Virus record (IMG/VR): IMGVR_UViG_3300037067_015039
Span: 1-64,000 of that record
Length of the DNA: 64,000 nt
Direction: 5' to 3' (one strand)
Source: a virus
Taxonomy: Duplodnaviria; Caudoviricetes
Position 1 is the stretch's first letter. Every line of letters starts with the position of its first letter. A model generated the notes under the pieces. It was given only the letters and a program-made list of their open reading frames with translations. It had not been told where the DNA came from and did not search any database. This document shows, piece by piece, positions 37,479 through 48,276 of the stretch. Both the position numbers and the translations under genes were made by a program.

Positions 37479-37712
37479 CTAATCCTTTGGCGCGGCTGGC
37501 AGAATATAGAAATTGCGCCATTCCCCGCAATTTACACCAAACAAAATATCTTGGTTTTTCCAGACTTCCAGCCGGCCATTAATTTCACTAACTGTAATCT
37601 GGTTTGCATGCGCAATTTCCTGCGAACTACCGTCTCGGAAAAAAATCCGAACTGCCTTATTCCCTTTAATCTGATATTCCCTTAAAAGCTTCGATTCTGA
37701 GATTTCGCTCAT
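37479..37712 (-). CDS. Hypothetical protein
   Basis: MSEISES start; overlaps the end of the upstream gene. Confidence 0.5.
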   Translation of the reverse strand: MSEISESKLLREYQIKGNKAVRIFFRDGSSQEIAHANQITVSEINGRLEVWKNQDILFGVNCGEWRNFYILPAAPKD

Positions 37713-38004
37713 CCATTGCCGCCTCCACGGCTTTCTCGACGTCCGCAAGTTGTCCAAGACGACGAGACACTTCCACCTTATGCCAATGTTTAAAAGTAAC
37801 AGAATTGACCATACGTTCTAATGCTGCTTTTTTGTTTTGAGCTTGAGATCTGAATTCGCGTCCTTCGCCAAAAGCGCCAGACGCTATATGCGTGATGCGG
37901 ACTCCGTTTTGATTGGAGTTTTGATGCTGGCCGCCAGGGCCACCTGTGCAGAAGGTGGCAATTTTGAAATCCTTTTTTGTCAGACTAAATAAAAGTTTTC
38001 TCAT
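37666..38004 (-). CDS. Stand-alone GGQ peptidyl-tRNA hydrolase domain (RF-1 family, PrfH/ArfB-like)
   Basis: TFCTGGPGGQHQN...GVRITHIASG......RSQAQNKKAAL. Confidence 0.92.
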   Translation of the reverse strand: MRKLLFSLTKKDFKIATFCTGGPGGQHQNSNQNGVRITHIASGAFGEGREFRSQAQNKKAALERMVNSVTFKHWHKVEVSRRLGQLADVEKAVEAAMDERNLRIEAFKGISD

Positions 38005-38069: not shown

Positions 38070-38423
38070 TTACTGACCCTTGAGTTGCTCTTCAAGACGA
38101 GCGATTTCGTCCTTGAGAGCTTGACGCTTCTCTTCGGCAGGCAGAAGAGCTTCCAACCGGGATTTCTTTTCACGAAGCATCTTTTGCAACCGATCAGCCT
38201 GGCTCAGGGAGATTTCCTTACGGATATCACGCATCTTAGCATCGAGCCATTCAGGCTGCTCGACATTGAGGGTTTTGAACTCTTCCTGAATCATACGTCC
38301 GACTGCGGACAGAGTTACAAGATCCTCCAGGGCAAGACCCTCGGTTTCGAACTTCCGAATCTCGTCTATCAAATACATCGACATAATCTGACCTCCTTTC
38401 TTAGTCTTCTTGATTGCCATCAC
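38070..38423 (-). CDS. Coiled-coil protein directly downstream of Ro60
   Basis: Likely start MSMYL after AAAGGAGG; all-helical. Confidence 0.7.
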   Translation of the reverse strand: MMAIKKTKKGGQIMSMYLIDEIRKFETEGLALEDLVTLSAVGRMIQEEFKTLNVEQPEWLDAKMRDIRKEISLSQADRLQKMLREKKSRLEALLPAEEKRQALKDEIARLEEQLKGQ

Positions 38424-39927
38424 TGAACGCCTCCGACAATTTCAAAAGTGGAGTTGCCATAATCTCATCCACCAAAGAGTAGGGATTGGTCCGCATGCTT
38501 TGGACCAGGTTTGGTATACTGTAATAATCGATATCAATACCGAGTTCAAAAACTTGCAAATCAAACCCGTTCTTCTTCATGCTCTCGGCAAATTCCTGAT
38601 CTCCCCATCCCCTGTTTTCAGCCCCACAACGATAGAAATAAACGGGGATATCCTTATCTGCAACCTGCAAAAGGCGCCGGTATTCATCGGAAAAAAATGG
38701 AGGAGAATTCTCCAGACCATCTGAGACGATCGCAATTCCGTCAATCTCAATATGACTCAACATAGCCGATCTCAATCCGCAACCAATGGAAGTCCCTCCA
38801 TTAGCATTGACATTCCGGGTCTTCTTCAAAATTTCTTCATAGCCAAACCCGGTGACATCAATCATTAACGGAGTCTGATCGAAGAAAGTAAGGGTAACGC
38901 TTCCCTTAACCATCTTCGCCAAAGTTCCCGCCACATGTCTGGAAGCCTCGATGCATTGAGACATTGATCCCGACTTATCACCGAGAATCAGCCAATTGCC
39001 CTCAATGCTCATATTCTGAATCTGCTTCTCCTGGACTGCATGGAGCTTGGCTTTCAGTTTTTCATCCCCAATCGCTTCCGCGGCGCGGGTAGTCTTCAAG
39101 ACGTTTTTCTTAGAAACAGCCGCCCGTTTAAGAGCATCCTCAAAAGCAGCACGAAGCGCCGGAACTTCTTTGACGCCCAATTTCTCCAGCATTTTAGTGC
39201 TGGTGACGACTTCTGTCGGGCTCATACGCTCAATAAGCGCAAGAACTAAATCAGGATCCTTTATTTTATTTCCGAGCGCCCCATGTGCTATCAAGAACGG
39301 GATCTTCCGTTCAAGAATGGTTCCCGCGGCTTCTTTTGAACTCATATTCCGCAGGTTTGCGACTGCCTCAAAAATGCTTCCTTTAGGAAGAGGAGATCTG
39401 ACCGGCTGCCGGCCTTCCGCTTTTGCTTTCAATCTTTCTTCCAGGGTGTGTCCAAAGAGAACGATATTCACCCGATCAGAGCCAGGTTTGACATCAGCTA
39501 GGGAATAGAGTTCCTTGAGAACCGCACGGTGCTGGATCGCGGTGAAATCCCATTTCTTACCTTCCTTCATGTGGAGGTAATCCGCAATCACCCTTTTGAG
39601 TTGGCGAATATGGCCAAGCGGCCGGACATCCAGAGCGAATCGATACGCCTTCAACAACTCCCGTGGATTCAGGAAAGTCAAATGAGCAAGACTGTTCTCG
39701 ACAAGTTCTTGCGGAAATCCAGGAACCGTTAAACTGACGATAGGCAATGCCGCCTTCGCATCCCTAATCTGGCCATGGGTACGATCCCAAGCAATAAGAT
39801 GAGCCAGAAAATCAGGTTCATTCTGAGCCGCAAGCTGTCCTATTGCGAGGTATTCACGGAGTTTCCCATGAGGAGATTTCGTGAGTTCTGAGATAATTTG
39901 GTTCTTGGTTACTTTGACCTTTTCCAT
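38401..39927 (-). CDS. Ro60/Rsr-like TROVE + vWA RNA-binding protein
   Basis: 508 aa; helical N-terminus (EPDFLAHL..W....GQIRD); C-terminal vWA with MIDAS DKSGS, GGTS and IVSDG.EN; adjacent to the Y-RNA-like array. Confidence 0.85.
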   Translation of the reverse strand: MEKVKVTKNQIISELTKSPHGKLREYLAIGQLAAQNEPDFLAHLIAWDRTHGQIRDAKAALPIVSLTVPGFPQELVENSLAHLTFLNPRELLKAYRFALDVRPLGHIRQLKRVIADYLHMKEGKKWDFTAIQHRAVLKELYSLADVKPGSDRVNIVLFGHTLEERLKAKAEGRQPVRSPLPKGSIFEAVANLRNMSSKEAAGTILERKIPFLIAHGALGNKIKDPDLVLALIERMSPTEVVTSTKMLEKLGVKEVPALRAAFEDALKRAAVSKKNVLKTTRAAEAIGDEKLKAKLHAVQEKQIQNMSIEGNWLILGDKSGSMSQCIEASRHVAGTLAKMVKGSVTLTFFDQTPLMIDVTGFGYEEILKKTRNVNANGGTSIGCGLRSAMLSHIEIDGIAIVSDGLENSPPFFSDEYRRLLQVADKDIPVYFYRCGAENRGWGDQEFAESMKKNGFDLQVFELGIDIDYYSIPNLVQSMRTNPYSLVDEIMATPLLKLSEAFSDGNQED

Positions 39928-39950
39928 GACGGTTCTCCCTTTTAGTTAAA

Positions 39951-40030
39951 TCACTGGAAGTCGATTGGCTTGTTATGCCGAAAAGCAGGCATCATGTGTT
40001 CAAGACATGTAAGCTAATCAGTACCAGTGA
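39951..40030 (-). ncRNA. Y-RNA-like unit Y1 (minimal, two hairpins)
   Basis: UCACUGG/CCAGUGA stem; UACUG..UACAUG..UCGACUU scaffold. Confidence 0.75.
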
Positions 40031-40037
40031 AACTTTA

Positions 40038-40129
40038 TTGCGGAAAGTCGGTCGGCTCTTGGTTGACTAAGGACTTTACATCCTCCGCCTATGTTTTTAA
40101 GGAACATGTAAGCCAATCAGTATCCGCAA
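40038..40129 (-). ncRNA. Y-RNA-like unit Y2 (two hairpins)
   Basis: UUGCGGA/UCCGCAA stem; same scaffold. Confidence 0.75.
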
Positions 40130-40298
40130 AACTTTTCGTCCCATGTGCTATAGGCGCTGCGTCGTTTTAGCCCTGTTATGCCTAATTTGGGCCACTCAGA
40201 CAGCACATGGGACTTCCGATGGTCCCCACTACGGCTCTTATAGCCCCAATCCTCGAACCTTGGGTGGGTGTTGCCGGGCTATCCGACCATCTAAAATC

Positions 40299-40433
40299 TG
40301 GCTGCAAAGTCGATTCCGGAGTTGTCATGTTGCCCTACCATTGGGCGAATCCGGCATAAGGTGGAGCCGGATTCTGGATTCGAACCAGAACACTCATTGC
40401 TGAGTTCATGTAACCGTTTTCAGTGTGCAGCCA
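40299..40433 (-). ncRNA. Y-RNA-like unit Y3 (YrlA-like permuted tRNA mimic keeping CCA)
   Basis: UGGCUGCA/UGCAGCCA stem; order is T arm, acceptor 3' strand + U-CCA, loop, acceptor 5' strand, D arm. Confidence 0.85.
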
Positions 40434-40510
40434 TATAATTTGGGCGGGTGTCATTCATCCCCCCGGGGAGATTCCCACATGGCCAATGCAGTAGACACCC
40501 ATAATTTTTC

Positions 40511-40666
40511 TGGCCTTTAAGTCGATCAGCCTATTTTTCTGCGCGTTTACCATTTACGCCATTGCCCCATAATAAAGTTAAGGCGGGGCAAGAAGGATTC
40601 GAACCTCCAATTTCGGTTTCCCGAAAACAGGACCCTAAGTCATGTAAGCTATTCAGTAAAAGGCCA
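40511..40666 (-). ncRNA. Y-RNA-like unit Y4 (YrlA-like permuted tRNA mimic, long variable arm)
   Basis: UGGCCUUU/AAAGGCCA stem; GGAGGUUCGAAUCCUUC T arm; UUGCCCC/GGGGCAA acceptor; GCGUAAAUGGUAAACGC D arm. Confidence 0.85.
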
Positions 40667-40900
40667 TAATCTTTTCAAAGATCTGGAAGAGTCTGCAACG
40701 CCTTGGAGCCTGTAATATAATTCCGCAACTAATTCAGGATCCACGTTAGTCCGAATCGCTTGCTCTGGTAGCCAAGAGGCAGTGTGTTTTTACCTGGACT
40801 CAGACTCTATAATCCGGGGGGCTCTTGGGACGCTATCCACTTTGAGCCCCTATTCAAAATGCCCTCAATATGGGCGTTTAGTATTTTATGGCTGTAAGCC

Positions 40901-40931
40901 GTTTCAATCCACGCCTCACAACGGAAGCGAC
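40901..40931 (-). CRISPR. Solitary type I-C-like CRISPR repeat (no array)
   Basis: GTCGCTTCCGTTGTGAGGCGTGGATTGAAAC fits GTCGC...GCGTGGATTGAAAC, with a CGCUUC/GAGGCG hairpin; no cas genes in the window. Confidence 0.85.
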
Positions 40932-41052
40932 TTGGCTGTAAGTCGAATGAGGATCATTTGTGTTCGATACCCATCGACCCCCCCATACTATTTTTGTGGA
41001 GGGGGGCGCCTGCGAGGCGCTACGCATGTAGCCTCAAAACAGTAACAGCCAA
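40932..41052 (-). ncRNA. Y-RNA-like unit Y5 (degenerate three-hairpin cargo)
   Basis: UUGGCUGU/ACAGCCAA stem; scaffold motifs present. Confidence 0.75.
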
Positions 41053-41246
41053 ACTCTAATCCCTGTGGTCCGGACAACTCACTCCCAAGTACCCCGGATT
41101 CCCGGATTGCAAGATCATAGTCAGAAAACAAAATCGGCTTGCCCCTTGGAGTCGGTCTCTTGCCAATTTCTGCTATGTGTATCCACGGGCGCTAATCCCT
41201 TGCTGTGTTGGGGCGATGGCTCTCACGCCAATGCCACAGGGAAAAT

Positions 41247-41819
41247 CTACTTGATTACCCGCTTTGCGAGATAATCAACAAACTTATTAGGATCCATCCC
41301 GCGCTCTGCGCACCAGATAAACGGATCCTGCGAACCTTTATCCTTGTTGCATGATTTGCAGGACGTCAGATAGTTCGAAGTATTATTCTTCTTTTCGTCC
41401 ATTTCGAGAGGGATGAAGTGATCAATCGTCATAAGAGCTTCACCCATCTTTTTCCCGCAATACATGCATTTGAAACCATCGGCCGCCCAAACCTTTTGTT
41501 GGATCGAGCCTGATATTTCATATCTCACCTTTCGTTGGAAGATCTTGGGGTTTCCAACAAGTATTTCCGGATCATCAGAGCGGTGAATGAAATCAGACCA
41601 TTCTTCTACTGTAAGTTCTCTCCATTCGCTATAAGCACATATATCCATGCCATTATTATTGGCTCGGTTAAGAACTCCAGGAAGGGCCAGAATCATGCTC
41701 GAACCACCCCCTGTAAGAAGAATGCCACTAATCTTAACCAGTGACCCGATATCCCCATACATAACCGGGCGATTTCGCATTTCCATCAAATAAAACCGAT
41801 CACCGCTACTCTTGGCCAT
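41247..41819 (-). CDS. HNH endonuclease within the RNA array
   Basis: DGFKCMYCG...TIDHFIP...NYLTSCKSCNKDKG. Confidence 0.9.
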   Translation of the reverse strand: MAKSSGDRFYLMEMRNRPVMYGDIGSLVKISGILLTGGGSSMILALPGVLNRANNNGMDICAYSEWRELTVEEWSDFIHRSDDPEILVGNPKIFQRKVRYEISGSIQQKVWAADGFKCMYCGKKMGEALMTIDHFIPLEMDEKKNNTSNYLTSCKSCNKDKGSQDPFIWCAERGMDPNKFVDYLAKRVIK

Positions 41820-41836
41820 CTCTACCTCTTAAAAAC

Positions 41837-41968
41837 TGGCGTCAAGTCGATATGCTTTATTTCGCGCTCTAACCAGACTGAGCTACCCGGACGCATACGC
41901 GCCCGGGGTTGGATTCGAACCAACGACCTCGGCATTGGAATTGCATGTAAGCCTACCAGTGAACGCCA
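41837..41968 (-). ncRNA. Y-RNA-like unit Y6 (YrlA-like permuted tRNA mimic)
   Basis: UGGCGU/ACGCCA stem; GUUGGUUCGAAUCCAAC T arm; closed acceptor; UAGCUCAGUCUGGUUAGAGC D arm. Confidence 0.88.
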
Positions 41969-41982
41969 TTACTATAATTGCT

Positions 41983-42109
41983 GTTCCCTGAAAGTCGCTC
42001 AGCTTTTTAAGGATTGAATAATCGGATTTGAACCGATCACACACTGATTTAAATTCAGTTGCTCTACCAAATGAGCTATATTCATGTACGCTGAACAGTG
42101 TCAGGGAAC
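41983..42109 (-). ncRNA. Y-RNA-like unit Y7 enclosing a non-permuted tRNA cloverleaf (anticodon UUA)
   Basis: GUUCCCUGA/UCAGGGAAC stem; D arm, ACUGA-AUUUAAA-UCAGU, T arm in normal order. Confidence 0.82.
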
Positions 42110-42117
42110 GTATTTTA

Positions 42118-42525
42118 TTAATTTTGCTGGATCAAACACCATAACCCTTTTTTTCGCTCGACTCTCGGGGTTTTCCTTTTCGACTCTTTATGAAGTGTAC
42201 TATAAAGAGTTTGAATTGGGTTTTTCCCCTGGACCTGATGACCTGATTCAGTCAATCGGTCCAAAAGAGCCGGCGTCCTAATAGGGCCGCCTGTGCTTAT
42301 AATTTCGATGGCCGCGCCTATGATGGATATTGGTCCCTCAACTTTCGAATCAGGTCCCGGCTGCGGTACTGGCGTTTCCTGTGGAGATCGTTCCACGTCT
42401 GAAAGGAAATAATCGATCTCGGAGAGTAAAGCGCCAATGCGATTCTTCTCTTTAATCAGTTCTTCCTTTAGGGAGACTGCCTTCTCTTTTATTGCTGCCA
42501 TTCCTGAATTCGTAAGTGTCATCAT
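42118..42525 (-). CDS. Coiled-coil + winged-helix (HARE-HTH-like) DNA-binding protein
   Basis: AIEII..GGP......L...L......GKNPIQTLYSTL......VERKKGLW.L. Confidence 0.65.
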   Translation of the reverse strand: MMTLTNSGMAAIKEKAVSLKEELIKEKNRIGALLSEIDYFLSDVERSPQETPVPQPGPDSKVEGPISIIGAAIEIISTGGPIRTPALLDRLTESGHQVQGKNPIQTLYSTLHKESKRKTPRVERKKGLWCLIQQN

Positions 42526-47007: not shown

Positions 47008-48276
47008 TTATTCCTTATTGATGACTTTATTAAGATGCGTATTCCCAAACGAAAGATACCTCACCGGAATCCCGGGCGCAATTTCCGACAAACCATTTAC
47101 CACAGAATTTGCCTGACGAAGCCCATAGGAATAATCCTTATGGTTTACCATAATTTCTTTGCTGATTTCGCGCAATTGTTCGAATGGCCGGCTTCGATAA
47201 CAATCAGCATAAATCCAGCGTTTTTGTTCTTTGAGAATATCCATATGGGTTATGGCCAATTCGTCCACTTTGCCAACAACACTGAGAGCGTATTTGAACG
47301 CTGGCACATCGAAATACCCTCTTCTCAAATCCCCCTGCCACTGATTATTTATGTTATGTTCCGGCTGCACATCAAATCCGTGGACATTCAGATCTTCGCT
47401 TTCTGTGACAAATGGGCCTGCGCCATGCCTGGTGAAATAGGTTCGAACCACCCCAATGGTTGTTATGTCTAATTTATCGGTCGCCCCATAGTGATTGATA
47501 ATCTCAAAGGCGTTATTGAACGTACAATCCGTCCAGGTGACGTGATTCCCAAACCCGTGGGTCTCGTCCAGCAGGACTCCCTGAGCGCCTTCAAAGACAA
47601 TTGCATTCGGCAAACTATTCCTGATGTCATAAAACGTGCCAACTTTAATTTGTTGGAGCCAATCTTTGTAGAAATTTCTAACGTCTACCGGAGTTTCATT
47701 CTGCATTAGATCGTAAAGATTTTGGGTTTCTTTGCTATTGATAAATTTCTTGCATTGCCGAAGTTTTGTTTCTTTTATCCATTCCAGTCTTTCAATCGAA
47801 TGAGGACATGGAATATCCGAGACCTCGAGAGATAGCCCATCTAACTGATCTGCCCGGGTTTCCCCAACTCCCATTCCGCAGGATCCGTGTCTATCTTTTC
47901 CTCGAGACATTTCTTTGAGTCTGTTTGCTCTCCAATGCCAGGGAGTGACAATAACACTCTTGGGGTTTATTAGTAGGCGCTCAAGCCCATCATAAACTCC
48001 ACTATGTTTCAGTACCACATTCTCAATGAGCATTGAGTAGGGTTCAATAAGCATATATTCCGATAAATAGGTCCGGCACCCGGGGATGAAGGTGCCGGAC
48101 CCAAATTGAGCAAAGGTGTGATGGAGTCCGTCAGGCAACACGACGTTATGCCCTGCCTGCGGACCTCCATTATATCGGACTACCCAATTGGCCTTGTGTT
48201 CCCGGCAAAGAAAATCAACCATCGTTCCTTTGCCCTCATCCCCGAAGGCCAAACCTGCGATAATGAATATTTGCAT
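47008..48276 (-). CDS. purA: Adenylosuccinate synthetase family protein
   Basis: FGDEGKG, VRYNGGPQAGH, HGSCGMGVGE, FEGAQGVLLD and TRHGAGP motifs. Confidence 0.85.
   Translation of the reverse strand: MQIFIIAGLAFGDEGKGTMVDFLCREHKANWVVRYNGGPQAGHNVVLPDGLHHTFAQFGSGTFIPGCRTYLSEYMLIEPYSMLIENVVLKHSGVYDGLERLLINPKSVIVTPWHWRANRLKEMSRGKDRHGSCGMGVGETRADQLDGLSLEVSDIPCPHSIERLEWIKETKLRQCKKFINSKETQNLYDLMQNETPVDVRNFYKDWLQQIKVGTFYDIRNSLPNAIVFEGAQGVLLDETHGFGNHVTWTDCTFNNAFEIINHYGATDKLDITTIGVVRTYFTRHGAGPFVTESEDLNVHGFDVQPEHNINNQWQGDLRRGYFDVPAFKYALSVVGKVDELAITHMDILKEQKRWIYADCYRSRPFEQLREISKEIMVNHKDYSYGLRQANSVVNGLSEIAPGIPVRYLSFGNTHLNKVINKE

What the first reader, a model, noticed from the sequence alone, without database searches (positions are those of the whole stretch)
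41983..42109. Complete tRNA cloverleaf with a UUA (ochre-reading) anticodon nested inside a Y-RNA scaffold
Seen: unlike the permuted units, Y7 holds a normally ordered cloverleaf: UGAAUA/UAUUCA acceptor (1:72 mismatch, no CCA), GCUC-AUUUGGUA-GAGC D arm, ACUGA-AUUUAAA-UCAGU anticodon arm (34-36 = UUA, non-canonical A32), and AUCGG-UUCAAAU-CCGAU T arm. The acceptor end is sealed by the scaffold, and scaffold UACAUG overlaps its first bases. Inference: a non-chargeable tRNA that exposes an anticodon loop could decoy anticodon nucleases. If excised, it could act on UAA codons, which is notable beside a GGQ release-factor-like gene. Genes here use TAA as a normal stop, so this is not recoding.
Basis: partly seen in the sequence, partly recalled or inferred. 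Interest (0 to 1): 0.8.

Follow-up and report, generated by a model that had tools for sequence, protein, structure and literature searches.

The report
tRNA-shaped Y RNA beside phage Ro60
A phage small RNA that looks like a stop-codon-reading tRNA is really one member of a conserved family of Ro60-partner RNAs that carry a tRNA-shaped module, and its "stop" anticodon looks like drift rather than a decoding function.

Summary
Window 41983-42109 (-) contains a full-scoring cloverleaf (ARAGORN anticodon UUA; Rfam tRNA 57.1 bits). Its ends are closed by the same scaffold (outer stem, ACUG, inner stem, UACAUG ... CGACUU, outer stem) that six other units upstream of a 508-aa gene share. That gene's predicted fold matches Ro60.

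The weight placed on UUA does not hold. A covariance model built from the unit finds one or two full-length copies upstream of the Ro60 gene in 55 of 67 related phage loci (50 distinct sequences). In these copies 98% of cells are paired and 28 of 30 pairs show compensatory changes. The D arm, the T arm and loop positions U33, A37 and A38 are conserved. The triplet 34-36 takes 21 values, UUA only once, and differs between phages about as often as four-fold sites in the Ro60 gene. Nine of 44 regular loops have A34, which free tRNAs of the clade almost never have.

The acceptor helix is optional and is missing in the closest relative. The window has CCU where its four real tRNAs have CCA. TAA is the main stop codon.

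Best reading: a non-decoding tRNA-mimic Y RNA oriented like Deinococcus Yrn1. A decoy or suppressor role is not excluded but has no support. It is a new variant of a known kind.

The parts
41983..42109 (-). Whole Y7 unit: Y-type scaffold enclosing a tRNA-like cloverleaf
   Evidence: Fold -43.2 kcal/mol, z -5.2. Covariance model R1 scores it 145.4 bits and finds only one such unit in the 109-kb genome.
42101..42109 (-). Outer stem, 5' strand (GUUCCCUGA)
   Evidence: Pairs with 41983-41991. Compensatory changes in L002 and in L004/L005. Helix 1 is 99.7% paired with all 6 model pairs covarying.
41983..41991 (-). Outer stem, 3' strand (UCAGGGAAC)
   Evidence: As above.
42083..42100 (-). 5' scaffold core: C-ACUG-UU-CAGC-G-UACAUG (ACUG motif, inner stem 5' strand, UACAUG motif whose AUG doubles as tRNA positions 1-3)
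   Evidence: The same motifs occur in the other units upstream of the Ro60-like gene here and in L001-L005. The inner helix is 98% paired and covaries.
41992..42003 (-). 3' scaffold core: GCUG (inner stem 3' strand)-AG-CGACUU
42013..42085 (-). tRNA-like cloverleaf in normal order: acceptor 42085-42079 with 42020-42014, D arm 42076-42061, anticodon arm 42059-42043, T arm 42037-42021, base 73 = U at 42013
   Evidence: ARAGORN. Rfam tRNA 57.1 bits, model positions 1-71.
42050..42052 (-). Anticodon-position triplet UUA
   Evidence: ARAGORN anticodon at tRNA position 34. It is the only UUA among 44 regular loops of the family.
42004..42012 (-). 3' linker CCUUAAAAA; CCU occupies tRNA positions 74-76
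   Evidence: Sequence. Nine relatives have CCA at this position.
38401..39927 (-). Ro60-like protein (508 aa), presumed partner of the Y units
   Evidence: AlphaFold2 model, pLDDT 82. The top Foldseek hits are all Ro60/TROVE structures, E 2e-10 to 1e-7. No Pfam TROVE hit.
41833..41969 (-). Neighbouring unit Y6, a YrlA-type (permuted) tRNA-like Y RNA
   Evidence: Rfam YrlA RF02553, 42.7 bits, E 7.5e-7, full model length, below the gathering score of 69.

Best explanation
Y7 is a Ro60-associated Y RNA. Its paired ends and the conserved ACUG / UACAUG / CGACUU core form the handle for the phage's Ro60-like protein. Its variable 'cargo' is an L-shaped tRNA mimic in normal tRNA order (D arm, anticodon arm, variable loop, T arm). 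The scaffold is attached at the acceptor end, so the anticodon arm points away from Ro60.

The module is kept for its tRNA shape: the elbow, a 5-bp anticodon stem, and a 7-nt loop with U33, A37 and A38. It is not kept for decoding, and the triplet UUA is one outcome of near-neutral drift.

By analogy with Yrn1, which tethers PNPase to Ro60, and with YrlA, the module most likely tethers or sequesters a protein that recognises tRNA shape.

Shown here: the conserved structure, covariation, position next to a Ro60 homologue, and lack of constraint on the triplet. Inferred: Ro60 binding, the existence of a partner protein, and absence of charging.
For: 1. The neighbouring 508-aa protein has a Ro60 fold. 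The adjacent unit matches Rfam YrlA. The window's units share one scaffold.
2. Model R1 finds full-length units at 57-148 bits in the window and 55 of 67 related loci, all on the Ro60 strand and upstream of the gene. Free tRNAs match only the inner part of the model, at 55 bits or less.
3. 98.2% of cells are paired and 28 of 30 pairs show compensatory changes. The covariation score is 0.694, against 0.158 for shuffles and at most 0.11 for slid controls. RNAalifold on an independent MAFFT alignment recovers the outer stem, inner stem, D arm, anticodon arm and T arm.
4. The triplet takes 21 values in 44 loops, at 1.7-2.0 bits per position, while U33 is kept in 41 of 44, A37 in 38 of 44 and A38 in 40 of 44. 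Six of the 50 loops have irregular lengths.
5. The triplet differs between phages about as often as four-fold sites of the Ro60 gene (0.47 vs 0.43, 0.68 vs 0.59, 0.70 vs 0.74). The frame positions 33, 37 and 38 differ at 0.15-0.33.
6. A34 occurs in 9 of 44 embedded loops, 8 of them not ACG. Among 282 free tRNAs of the clade, A34 outside ACG occurs once.
7. The acceptor helix is optional. All four model pairs are present in 18 of 50 units, and the 5' strand is missing in L001, the closest relative.
8. The phage's four real tRNAs have GC-rich 7-bp acceptor stems and an encoded CCA. Y7 has 6 AU-rich pairs, an A.A mismatch at 1:72, U73 and CCU.
9. By BLAST, the nearest relatives of the Y7 cloverleaf among all 437 tRNA calls are Y7-type units only; the one hit flagged 'free', L051 5459-5533, lies inside a full-length R1 hit. 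They carry assorted anticodons.
10. Precedent: YrlA is a structurally proven tRNA mimic. Yrn1 has its tRNA-like elements in this same orientation, with an anticodon-like arm (PMC4201824; bioRxiv 10.1101/312249).
Against: Nine family members carry CCA exactly at positions 74-76 behind a good acceptor stem, several with A73 and anticodons such as CAU or GAA. Some members therefore look like ordinary pre-tRNAs that could be excised and charged. The window's CCU is one base from that state.

The conserved loop frame shows that something constrains the anticodon loop. A loop-reading partner, including a nuclease, fits that as well as a plain shape-reading one.

The partner protein is unknown.
Confidence: 0.7

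Rival explanations
1. Decoy or sponge for host enzymes that target tRNA anticodon loops. The exposed loop soaks up or misdirects an anticodon nuclease, and the triplet differs between phages because their hosts carry different nucleases.
For: The loop is exposed and keeps the canonical frame (U33, A37, A38) and a 5-bp stem. The triplet is highly variable, as an arms race could produce. Phage tRNAs are known to evolve anticodon-loop changes against tRNA-targeting defences; this paper (eLife 2023, e85183) was seen only as a reference listed in PMC11482910 and was not read.
Against: The triplet changes no faster than four-fold synonymous sites, so nothing beyond neutral drift is needed. None of the 44 triplets is UUU, the anticodon I recall as the PrrC and PARIS target (from memory, not checked here). 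Six loops have irregular lengths. A stoichiometric decoy needs very high expression, which is unknown. No column covaries with the triplet.
Confidence: 0.13
2. A working ochre suppressor tRNA. RNase P and 3' processing excise the cloverleaf, the host CCA enzyme repairs the end, a synthetase charges it, and it reads UAA at low level.
For: It has full tRNA tertiary-interaction nucleotides and a score of 57.1 bits. M. smegmatis YrlA is cut by RNase P and receives CCA in vivo (PMC4201824). Nine relatives keep NCCA in place. The window has CC at positions 74-75.
Against: UUA occurs once in 44 loops, and the closest relatives read UGA, GAA and UUC on the same body. The acceptor has an A.A mismatch at 1:72, is AU-rich, and is followed by U73. 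From known identity rules, this lacks what GlnRS, LysRS, TyrRS, LeuRS or GluRS need (inference). TAA ends 52% of long ORFs, and coding density does not rise when TAA is read through (0.863 vs 0.874). The phage encodes no CCA-adding enzyme. Its real tRNAs all encode CCA.
Confidence: 0.05
3. A processing signal. The tRNA shape recruits RNase P or RNase Z to cut the Y array free from the upstream mRNA, as in tRNA punctuation.
For: Y7 starts 8 nt after the stop codon of ORF 42118-42525. It is the first scaffold unit in the window and in L001-L005. No terminator-like site lies between them.
Against: In only 18 of 50 units are all four model acceptor pairs present, and the 5' strand is absent altogether in several, including L001. 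A 7-bp acceptor stem is a major RNase P determinant (PMC4201824). Conservation of the anticodon arm and loop frame would be unnecessary for this role.
Confidence: 0.07
4. A decaying tRNA gene that happens to lie in the array and has no function of its own.
For: AU-rich (33% GC against 53-65% for the real tRNAs), a mismatched acceptor stem and a decayed CCA.
Against: The unit is kept in 55 of 67 related loci despite saturated synonymous divergence, with compensatory changes in every helix and a nearly invariant D arm.
Confidence: 0.03

Closest known systems
YrlA (Rfam RF02553), the tRNA-like Y RNA of Salmonella, Mycobacterium and some phages
   Same: Encoded next to Ro60. Its ends pair into a Ro-binding stem and its cargo is an L-shaped tRNA mimic with conserved D and T arms. 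The neighbouring unit Y6 matches this model.
   Different: YrlA is permuted (T arm, loop-closed acceptor hairpin, D arm). The Ro stem takes the place of the anticodon stem and there is no anticodon loop (bioRxiv 10.1101/312249). Y7 has normal order and a full anticodon arm, is attached at the acceptor end, and gets no YrlA hit. The 5' scaffold motif here is YACUG, not GNCGAA.
Deinococcus radiodurans Yrn1
   Same: The tRNA-like elements lie in the same orientation relative to the RNA ends, with an 'anticodon arm' of 5 bp. It tethers Ro60 to PNPase (PMC4201824).
   Different: Yrn1 has no full D arm, a 6-nt loop and no variable region, and tRNA finders do not call it a tRNA. Y7 is a complete cloverleaf scoring as well as real tRNAs. 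No sequence homology was tested because no model was available.
M. smegmatis YrlA after processing
   Same: [quoted passage not shown] This is a precedent for partial tRNA-like maturation of a Y RNA.
   Different: It still lacks an anticodon loop. Cleavage there opens the acceptor loop. In Y7, cleavage would detach the module from the scaffold.
Phage-encoded suppressor tRNAs
   Same: A stop-reading anticodon on a phage tRNA-like gene.
   Different: Here there is no recoding, the triplet is not conserved, and the gene is embedded in a Y scaffold.
Bas63 gp130 (Ro60-like) and adjacent 'tRNA' genes
   Same: A phage Ro60-like protein next to annotated tRNAs. The authors suggest some of these tRNAs may be Y RNAs (PMC11482910).
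   Different: That is a suggestion without RNA analysis. This protein family has no close relative in cultured phages; the only hit is a metagenomic record at 26% identity.

Membership tests
Functional decoding tRNA (ochre suppressor) | Cloverleaf with conserved tertiary-interaction nucleotides | tested here: met
   Rfam RF00005 57.1 bits, full length; ARAGORN call.
Functional decoding tRNA (ochre suppressor) | 7-bp acceptor stem with NCCA, as in the genome's other tRNAs | tested here: not met
   6 bp plus an A.A mismatch at 1:72, then U73 and CCU. The four real tRNAs have 7 GC-rich pairs and an encoded CCA. 265 of 282 free tRNAs of the clade encode CCA.
Functional decoding tRNA (ochre suppressor) | Anticodon held by purifying selection among orthologues | tested here: not met
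   21 triplets in 44 loops, changing at the four-fold-site rate, with A34 common.
Functional decoding tRNA (ochre suppressor) | Excision to free ends and aminoacylation | not testable with these tools
Functional decoding tRNA (ochre suppressor) | Genome shows a need for it (TAA reassigned or in-frame TAA) | tested here: not met
   TAA ends 66 of 128 long ORFs. Coding density is 0.863 under the standard code and 0.874 with TAA read through.
Y RNA (Ro60-associated ncRNA) | Encoded next to a Ro60 orthologue on the same strand | tested here: met
   The 508-aa ORF has a Ro60 fold. Units lie upstream on the same strand in the window and 55 of 67 loci.
Y RNA (Ro60-associated ncRNA) | 5' and 3' ends pair into a stem that holds a conserved internal-loop motif | tested here: met
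   The outer and inner helices covary, and the ACUG, UACAUG and CGACUU motifs are conserved.
Y RNA (Ro60-associated ncRNA) | Physically bound by Ro60 | not testable with these tools
   Needs co-immunoprecipitation or a gel-shift assay.
YrlA (RF02553) | Order T arm, closed acceptor hairpin, D arm; no anticodon loop; match to the Rfam model | tested here: not met
   No YrlA hit on Y7 even at E up to 5. Its order is D arm, anticodon arm, T arm. Neighbour Y6 hits at 42.7 bits, below the gathering score of 69.
Yrn1-type Y RNA | tRNA-like elements in normal order with an anticodon-like arm between D-like and T-like elements | tested here: inconclusive
   The architecture agrees with the description in PMC4201824. 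No Yrn1 model or sequence was compared.
Anticodon-nuclease decoy | Loop mimics the target of a defined nuclease and protects against it | not testable with these tools
   The host and its defences are unknown. The triplet is not conserved.

The most novel reading that the evidence does not exclude
The Y7-type units form a continuum at one orthologous position upstream of the Ro60 gene. At one end are pre-tRNA-like genes with a 7-bp acceptor stem, A73 and CCA at positions 74-76. At the other are mimics with no acceptor stem. This would show tRNA genes turning into Y RNA cargo, or the reverse. It also raises the possibility that phage Ro60 holds tRNA-shaped RNAs with freely evolving anticodon loops as bait for host tRNA-targeting defences, or as a Ro60-gated reserve of tRNAs.
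Probability: 0.15. Interest if true: 0.8.

Novelty: new variant of a known kind. Interest (0 to 1): 0.5.

Why it matters
Y RNAs with tRNA-like domains are known, but the function of the tRNA mimicry is not.

This family adds a third architecture: normal order, with an exposed anticodon arm, attached by its acceptor end. It is present in most members of a large clade of uncultivated phages of roughly 100 kb, and it has many natural variants. Those variants already show which parts matter (the elbow, the anticodon stem, the loop frame) and which do not (the triplet, the acceptor stem, CCA). That narrows the search for the partner protein.

It also warns annotators that lone 'suppressor' or odd-anticodon tRNA calls next to Ro60-like genes may be Y RNAs rather than decoders.

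Tried and rejected
- DNA search of GenBank phages with the array: only chance tRNA matches.
- Protein search of GenBank phages with the Ro60-like protein: one metagenomic record at 26% identity, so no cultured model was found.
- Pfam and PDB sequence searches of the 508-aa protein gave nothing. PHROGs gave only a weak hit to an 'RNA-binding protein' family (E 0.0026). The fold comparison was needed to identify it.
- Search for a column covarying with the triplet, as a test for an internal pairing partner: mutual information at most 0.35 bits, so none.
- Origin of the module from one tRNA isotype: the best free-tRNA matches are of mixed isotypes (Gln, Thr, Met, His, Asp), so it is unresolved.
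- Recoding of TAA: rejected.
- Functional link to the GGQ gene: rejected as a general feature, because the gene is in only 6 of the 68 sequences compared.
- Phage-encoded CCA-adding enzyme or RtcB: none found.
- Protein atlas search for the conserved 117-aa ORF: no usable hit.

Full report
**Source.** The window is part of a 109,212-bp IMG/VR virus record that CheckV rates as complete. It carries a large terminase, HNH genes and a PurZ-like gene. It has four ordinary tRNAs.

**Observation.** On the minus strand, 42109-41983 reads as follows. An outer stem GUUCCCUGA is followed by C-ACUG-UU, an inner stem CAGC and G-UACAUG. The last three bases of UACAUG begin a 73-nt cloverleaf at 42085-42013. 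After the cloverleaf come CCUUAAAAA, GCUG, AG-CGACUU and the closing strand UCAGGGAAC.
- ARAGORN calls the cloverleaf tRNA-Stop(tta).
- Rfam's tRNA model gives 57.1 bits over its full length, as good as the phage's real tRNAs.
- The unit folds far better than shuffled sequences (z = -5.2).
The only refinement is that positions 74-76 read CCU.

**Context.** The next unit, 41969-41833, matches Rfam YrlA over the whole model (42.7 bits, E 7.5e-7, below the gathering score). Its order is the permuted one: T arm, closed acceptor hairpin, D arm. Seven units upstream of a 508-aa ORF (38401-39927, minus strand) share the scaffold of outer stem, (Y)ACUG, inner stem, UACAUG ... CGACUU, outer stem.

The ORF has no Pfam hit. 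An AlphaFold2 model (pLDDT 82) matches only Ro60/TROVE structures at the top of the Foldseek list. These include the Thermus phage phiLo protein, D. radiodurans Rsr, and human and frog Ro60, at E 2e-10 to 1e-7. Lower hits are vWA domains. 'Y-RNA scaffold' is therefore a fair description.

**Relatives.** The Ro60-like protein has at least 874 homologues in metagenomes. Sixty-seven related viral loci were fetched.

The orthologue of Y7 is recognisable in the closest loci by the same outer stem, with compensatory changes. In these loci the D arm and T arm are conserved and the anticodon stem covaries. The loop reads A-U-UUA-A-A here, C-U-UGA-G-A in L001, C-U-GAA-A-A in L002/L003, U-U-UGA-A-C in L004 and U-U-UUC-A-A in L005/L018. 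L001, the closest relative (88% Ro60 identity), lacks the 5' acceptor strand altogether.

A covariance model built from these five sequences finds 59 full-length matches, 50 of them distinct, at 57-148 bits. They lie in the window and 55 of the 67 loci. All are on the Ro60 strand and upstream of the gene. Free tRNAs match only the inner part of the model, at 55 bits or less. The window's genome has exactly one such unit.

**Structure support.** On the 50 distinct sequences, 98.2% of cells form standard pairs and 28 of 30 pairs show changes on both sides. The covariation score is 0.694, against 0.158 for shuffles and at most 0.11 for slid controls. That alignment was fitted to the model. RNAalifold on the independent MAFFT alignment also recovers the outer stem, inner stem, D arm, anticodon arm and T arm. 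The acceptor helix has letters in only about half of the rows, and where present it is 97% paired.

**The anticodon.** Of the 50 loops, 44 have seven bases. U33 (41 of 44), A37 (38 of 44) and A38 (40 of 44) are kept. Positions 34-36 have entropy 1.7-2.0 bits and take 21 different triplets: UGA seven times, AAU and CUU four times each, and UUA once. Six loops have 5, 6, 8 or 13 bases.

Between phages the triplet differs about as often as four-fold degenerate third positions of the adjacent Ro60 gene (0.47 vs 0.43, 0.68 vs 0.59, 0.70 vs 0.74 in three divergence bins). The frame positions 33, 37 and 38 differ at 0.15-0.33 (the pairs are not independent, so this is descriptive). No other column covaries with the triplet.

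A34 is present in 9 of the 44 embedded loops, and 8 of those 9 are not ACG. In 282 distinct free tRNAs of these loci, A34 outside ACG occurs once. The triplet is therefore not under the selection that acts on decoders, and UUA is one draw among many.

**Acceptor end.** The phage's real tRNAs (Pro, Gln, Ser, Glu) all have GC-rich 7-bp acceptor stems followed by an encoded CCA. Y7 has six AU-rich pairs, an A.A mismatch at 1:72, U73 and CCU. In the clade, 265 of 282 free tRNAs encode CCA.

Among the 50 embedded units, nine have CCA at or within one base of positions 74-76 (eight exactly, L002 one base 3' of it), mostly preceded by A73. They include units with CAU and GAA triplets. This is far more than the roughly one expected by chance. 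Part of the family therefore looks like ordinary pre-tRNA held between a paired leader and trailer. The rest has lost the acceptor stem and carries a small GNRA-type hairpin instead. The window's unit is intermediate.

**Decoding need.** TAA ends 66 of 128 long ORFs. Coding density barely changes when TAA is read through (0.863 vs 0.874). The phage encodes no CCA-adding enzyme and no RtcB. The GGQ gene at 37666-38004 is a 112-aa protein whose only Pfam match is the RF-1 domain. It is found in only 6 of the 68 sequences compared, the window and 5 related loci.

**Interpretation.** The best-supported reading is a Y RNA whose cargo is a tRNA mimic kept for shape. The literature gives close precedents.
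- YrlA is a crystallographically proven tRNA mimic, but it is permuted, has a closed acceptor loop and lacks the anticodon loop (bioRxiv 10.1101/312249).
- D. radiodurans Yrn1 has the opposite orientation, with a 5-bp 'anticodon arm' and a 6-nt loop (PMC4201824).
- M. smegmatis YrlA is cleaved by RNase P and receives CCA (same paper).
- The phiLo phage Ro60 binds phage Y-like RNAs and host PNPase (PMC12135203).
- For phage Bas63 it has been suggested that some annotated tRNAs next to a Ro60-like gene are Y RNAs (PMC11482910).

Y7 is thus a Yrn1-orientation Y RNA with a complete cloverleaf, which makes it a new variant of a known kind. The conserved loop frame leaves room for a loop-reading partner, including a nuclease (the decoy reading). 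The members that retain CCA leave room for excision and use as tRNA. For the window's UUA unit, nothing supports either idea.

**Limits.** There are no RNA data, no cultured relative and no known host. Ro60 binding is inferred from gene adjacency and the shared scaffold motifs.

Noticed in passing
window 41247-41819 (-): The HNH endonuclease gene inside the Y array is not sporadic. Full-length homologues (about 50-80% identity, 212 proteins) exist, and the gene sits upstream of Ro60 in 31 of the 67 related loci as well as in the window. It may be part of the Ro60/Y module rather than a homing endonuclease.
   Followed up: partly
window 38070-38423 (-): A 117-aa ORF directly downstream of the Ro60-like gene is conserved in 46 of the 67 related loci as well as in the window. 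It has no family assignment and no atlas hit. It is a candidate partner of Ro60.
   Followed up: partly
window 37666-38004 (-): A 112-aa protein with an RF-1/GGQ domain as its only Pfam match (57 bits), two genes downstream of Ro60. It is present only in the closest relatives and in L062.
   Followed up: partly
L002 4125-4254; L015 4901-5032; L026 4061-4189; L034 5423-5551; L055 4959-5091; L050 1626-1765; L054 5827-5965; L014 4389-4517; L061 170-293: These Y-scaffolded units carry CCA at or within one base of tRNA positions 74-76 behind a paired acceptor stem, mostly with A73. Several have CAU or GAA triplets. They may be real tRNAs matured out of a Y-type leader and trailer.
   Followed up: partly
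L013 2346-2420; L022/L059 11002-11077; L014 9452-9537: Free (not scaffolded) tRNA calls with stop-reading anticodons (CUA, CUA, UUA) lie inside the tRNA arrays of related phages. The L014 call is 86 nt long and sits where other phages have tRNA-Lys(UUU), so it may be a miscall.
   Followed up: no
window 47008-48276 (-): Strong match to PHROG 1211 (labelled '2-aminooxy adenylosuccinate synthetase'), E 6e-68. I take this family to be PurZ (from memory, not checked); if so, it hints that the phage may replace adenine with 2-aminoadenine in its DNA.
   Followed up: no
window 41060-41240 (-): A stretch in the array without the scaffold motifs but with a long-range pairing, UCCCUGUGG ... CCACAGGGA. 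It looks like a different structured RNA.
   Followed up: no
L033 2037-2449: ARAGORN predicts a permuted tmRNA with tag AEDNALPMAA in a related phage, inside its tRNA array.
   Followed up: no
window 39900-42200: One HNH homologue is deposited under a Sphagnum moss assembly. This hints that the phage clade lives in peat or bog habitats.
   Followed up: no
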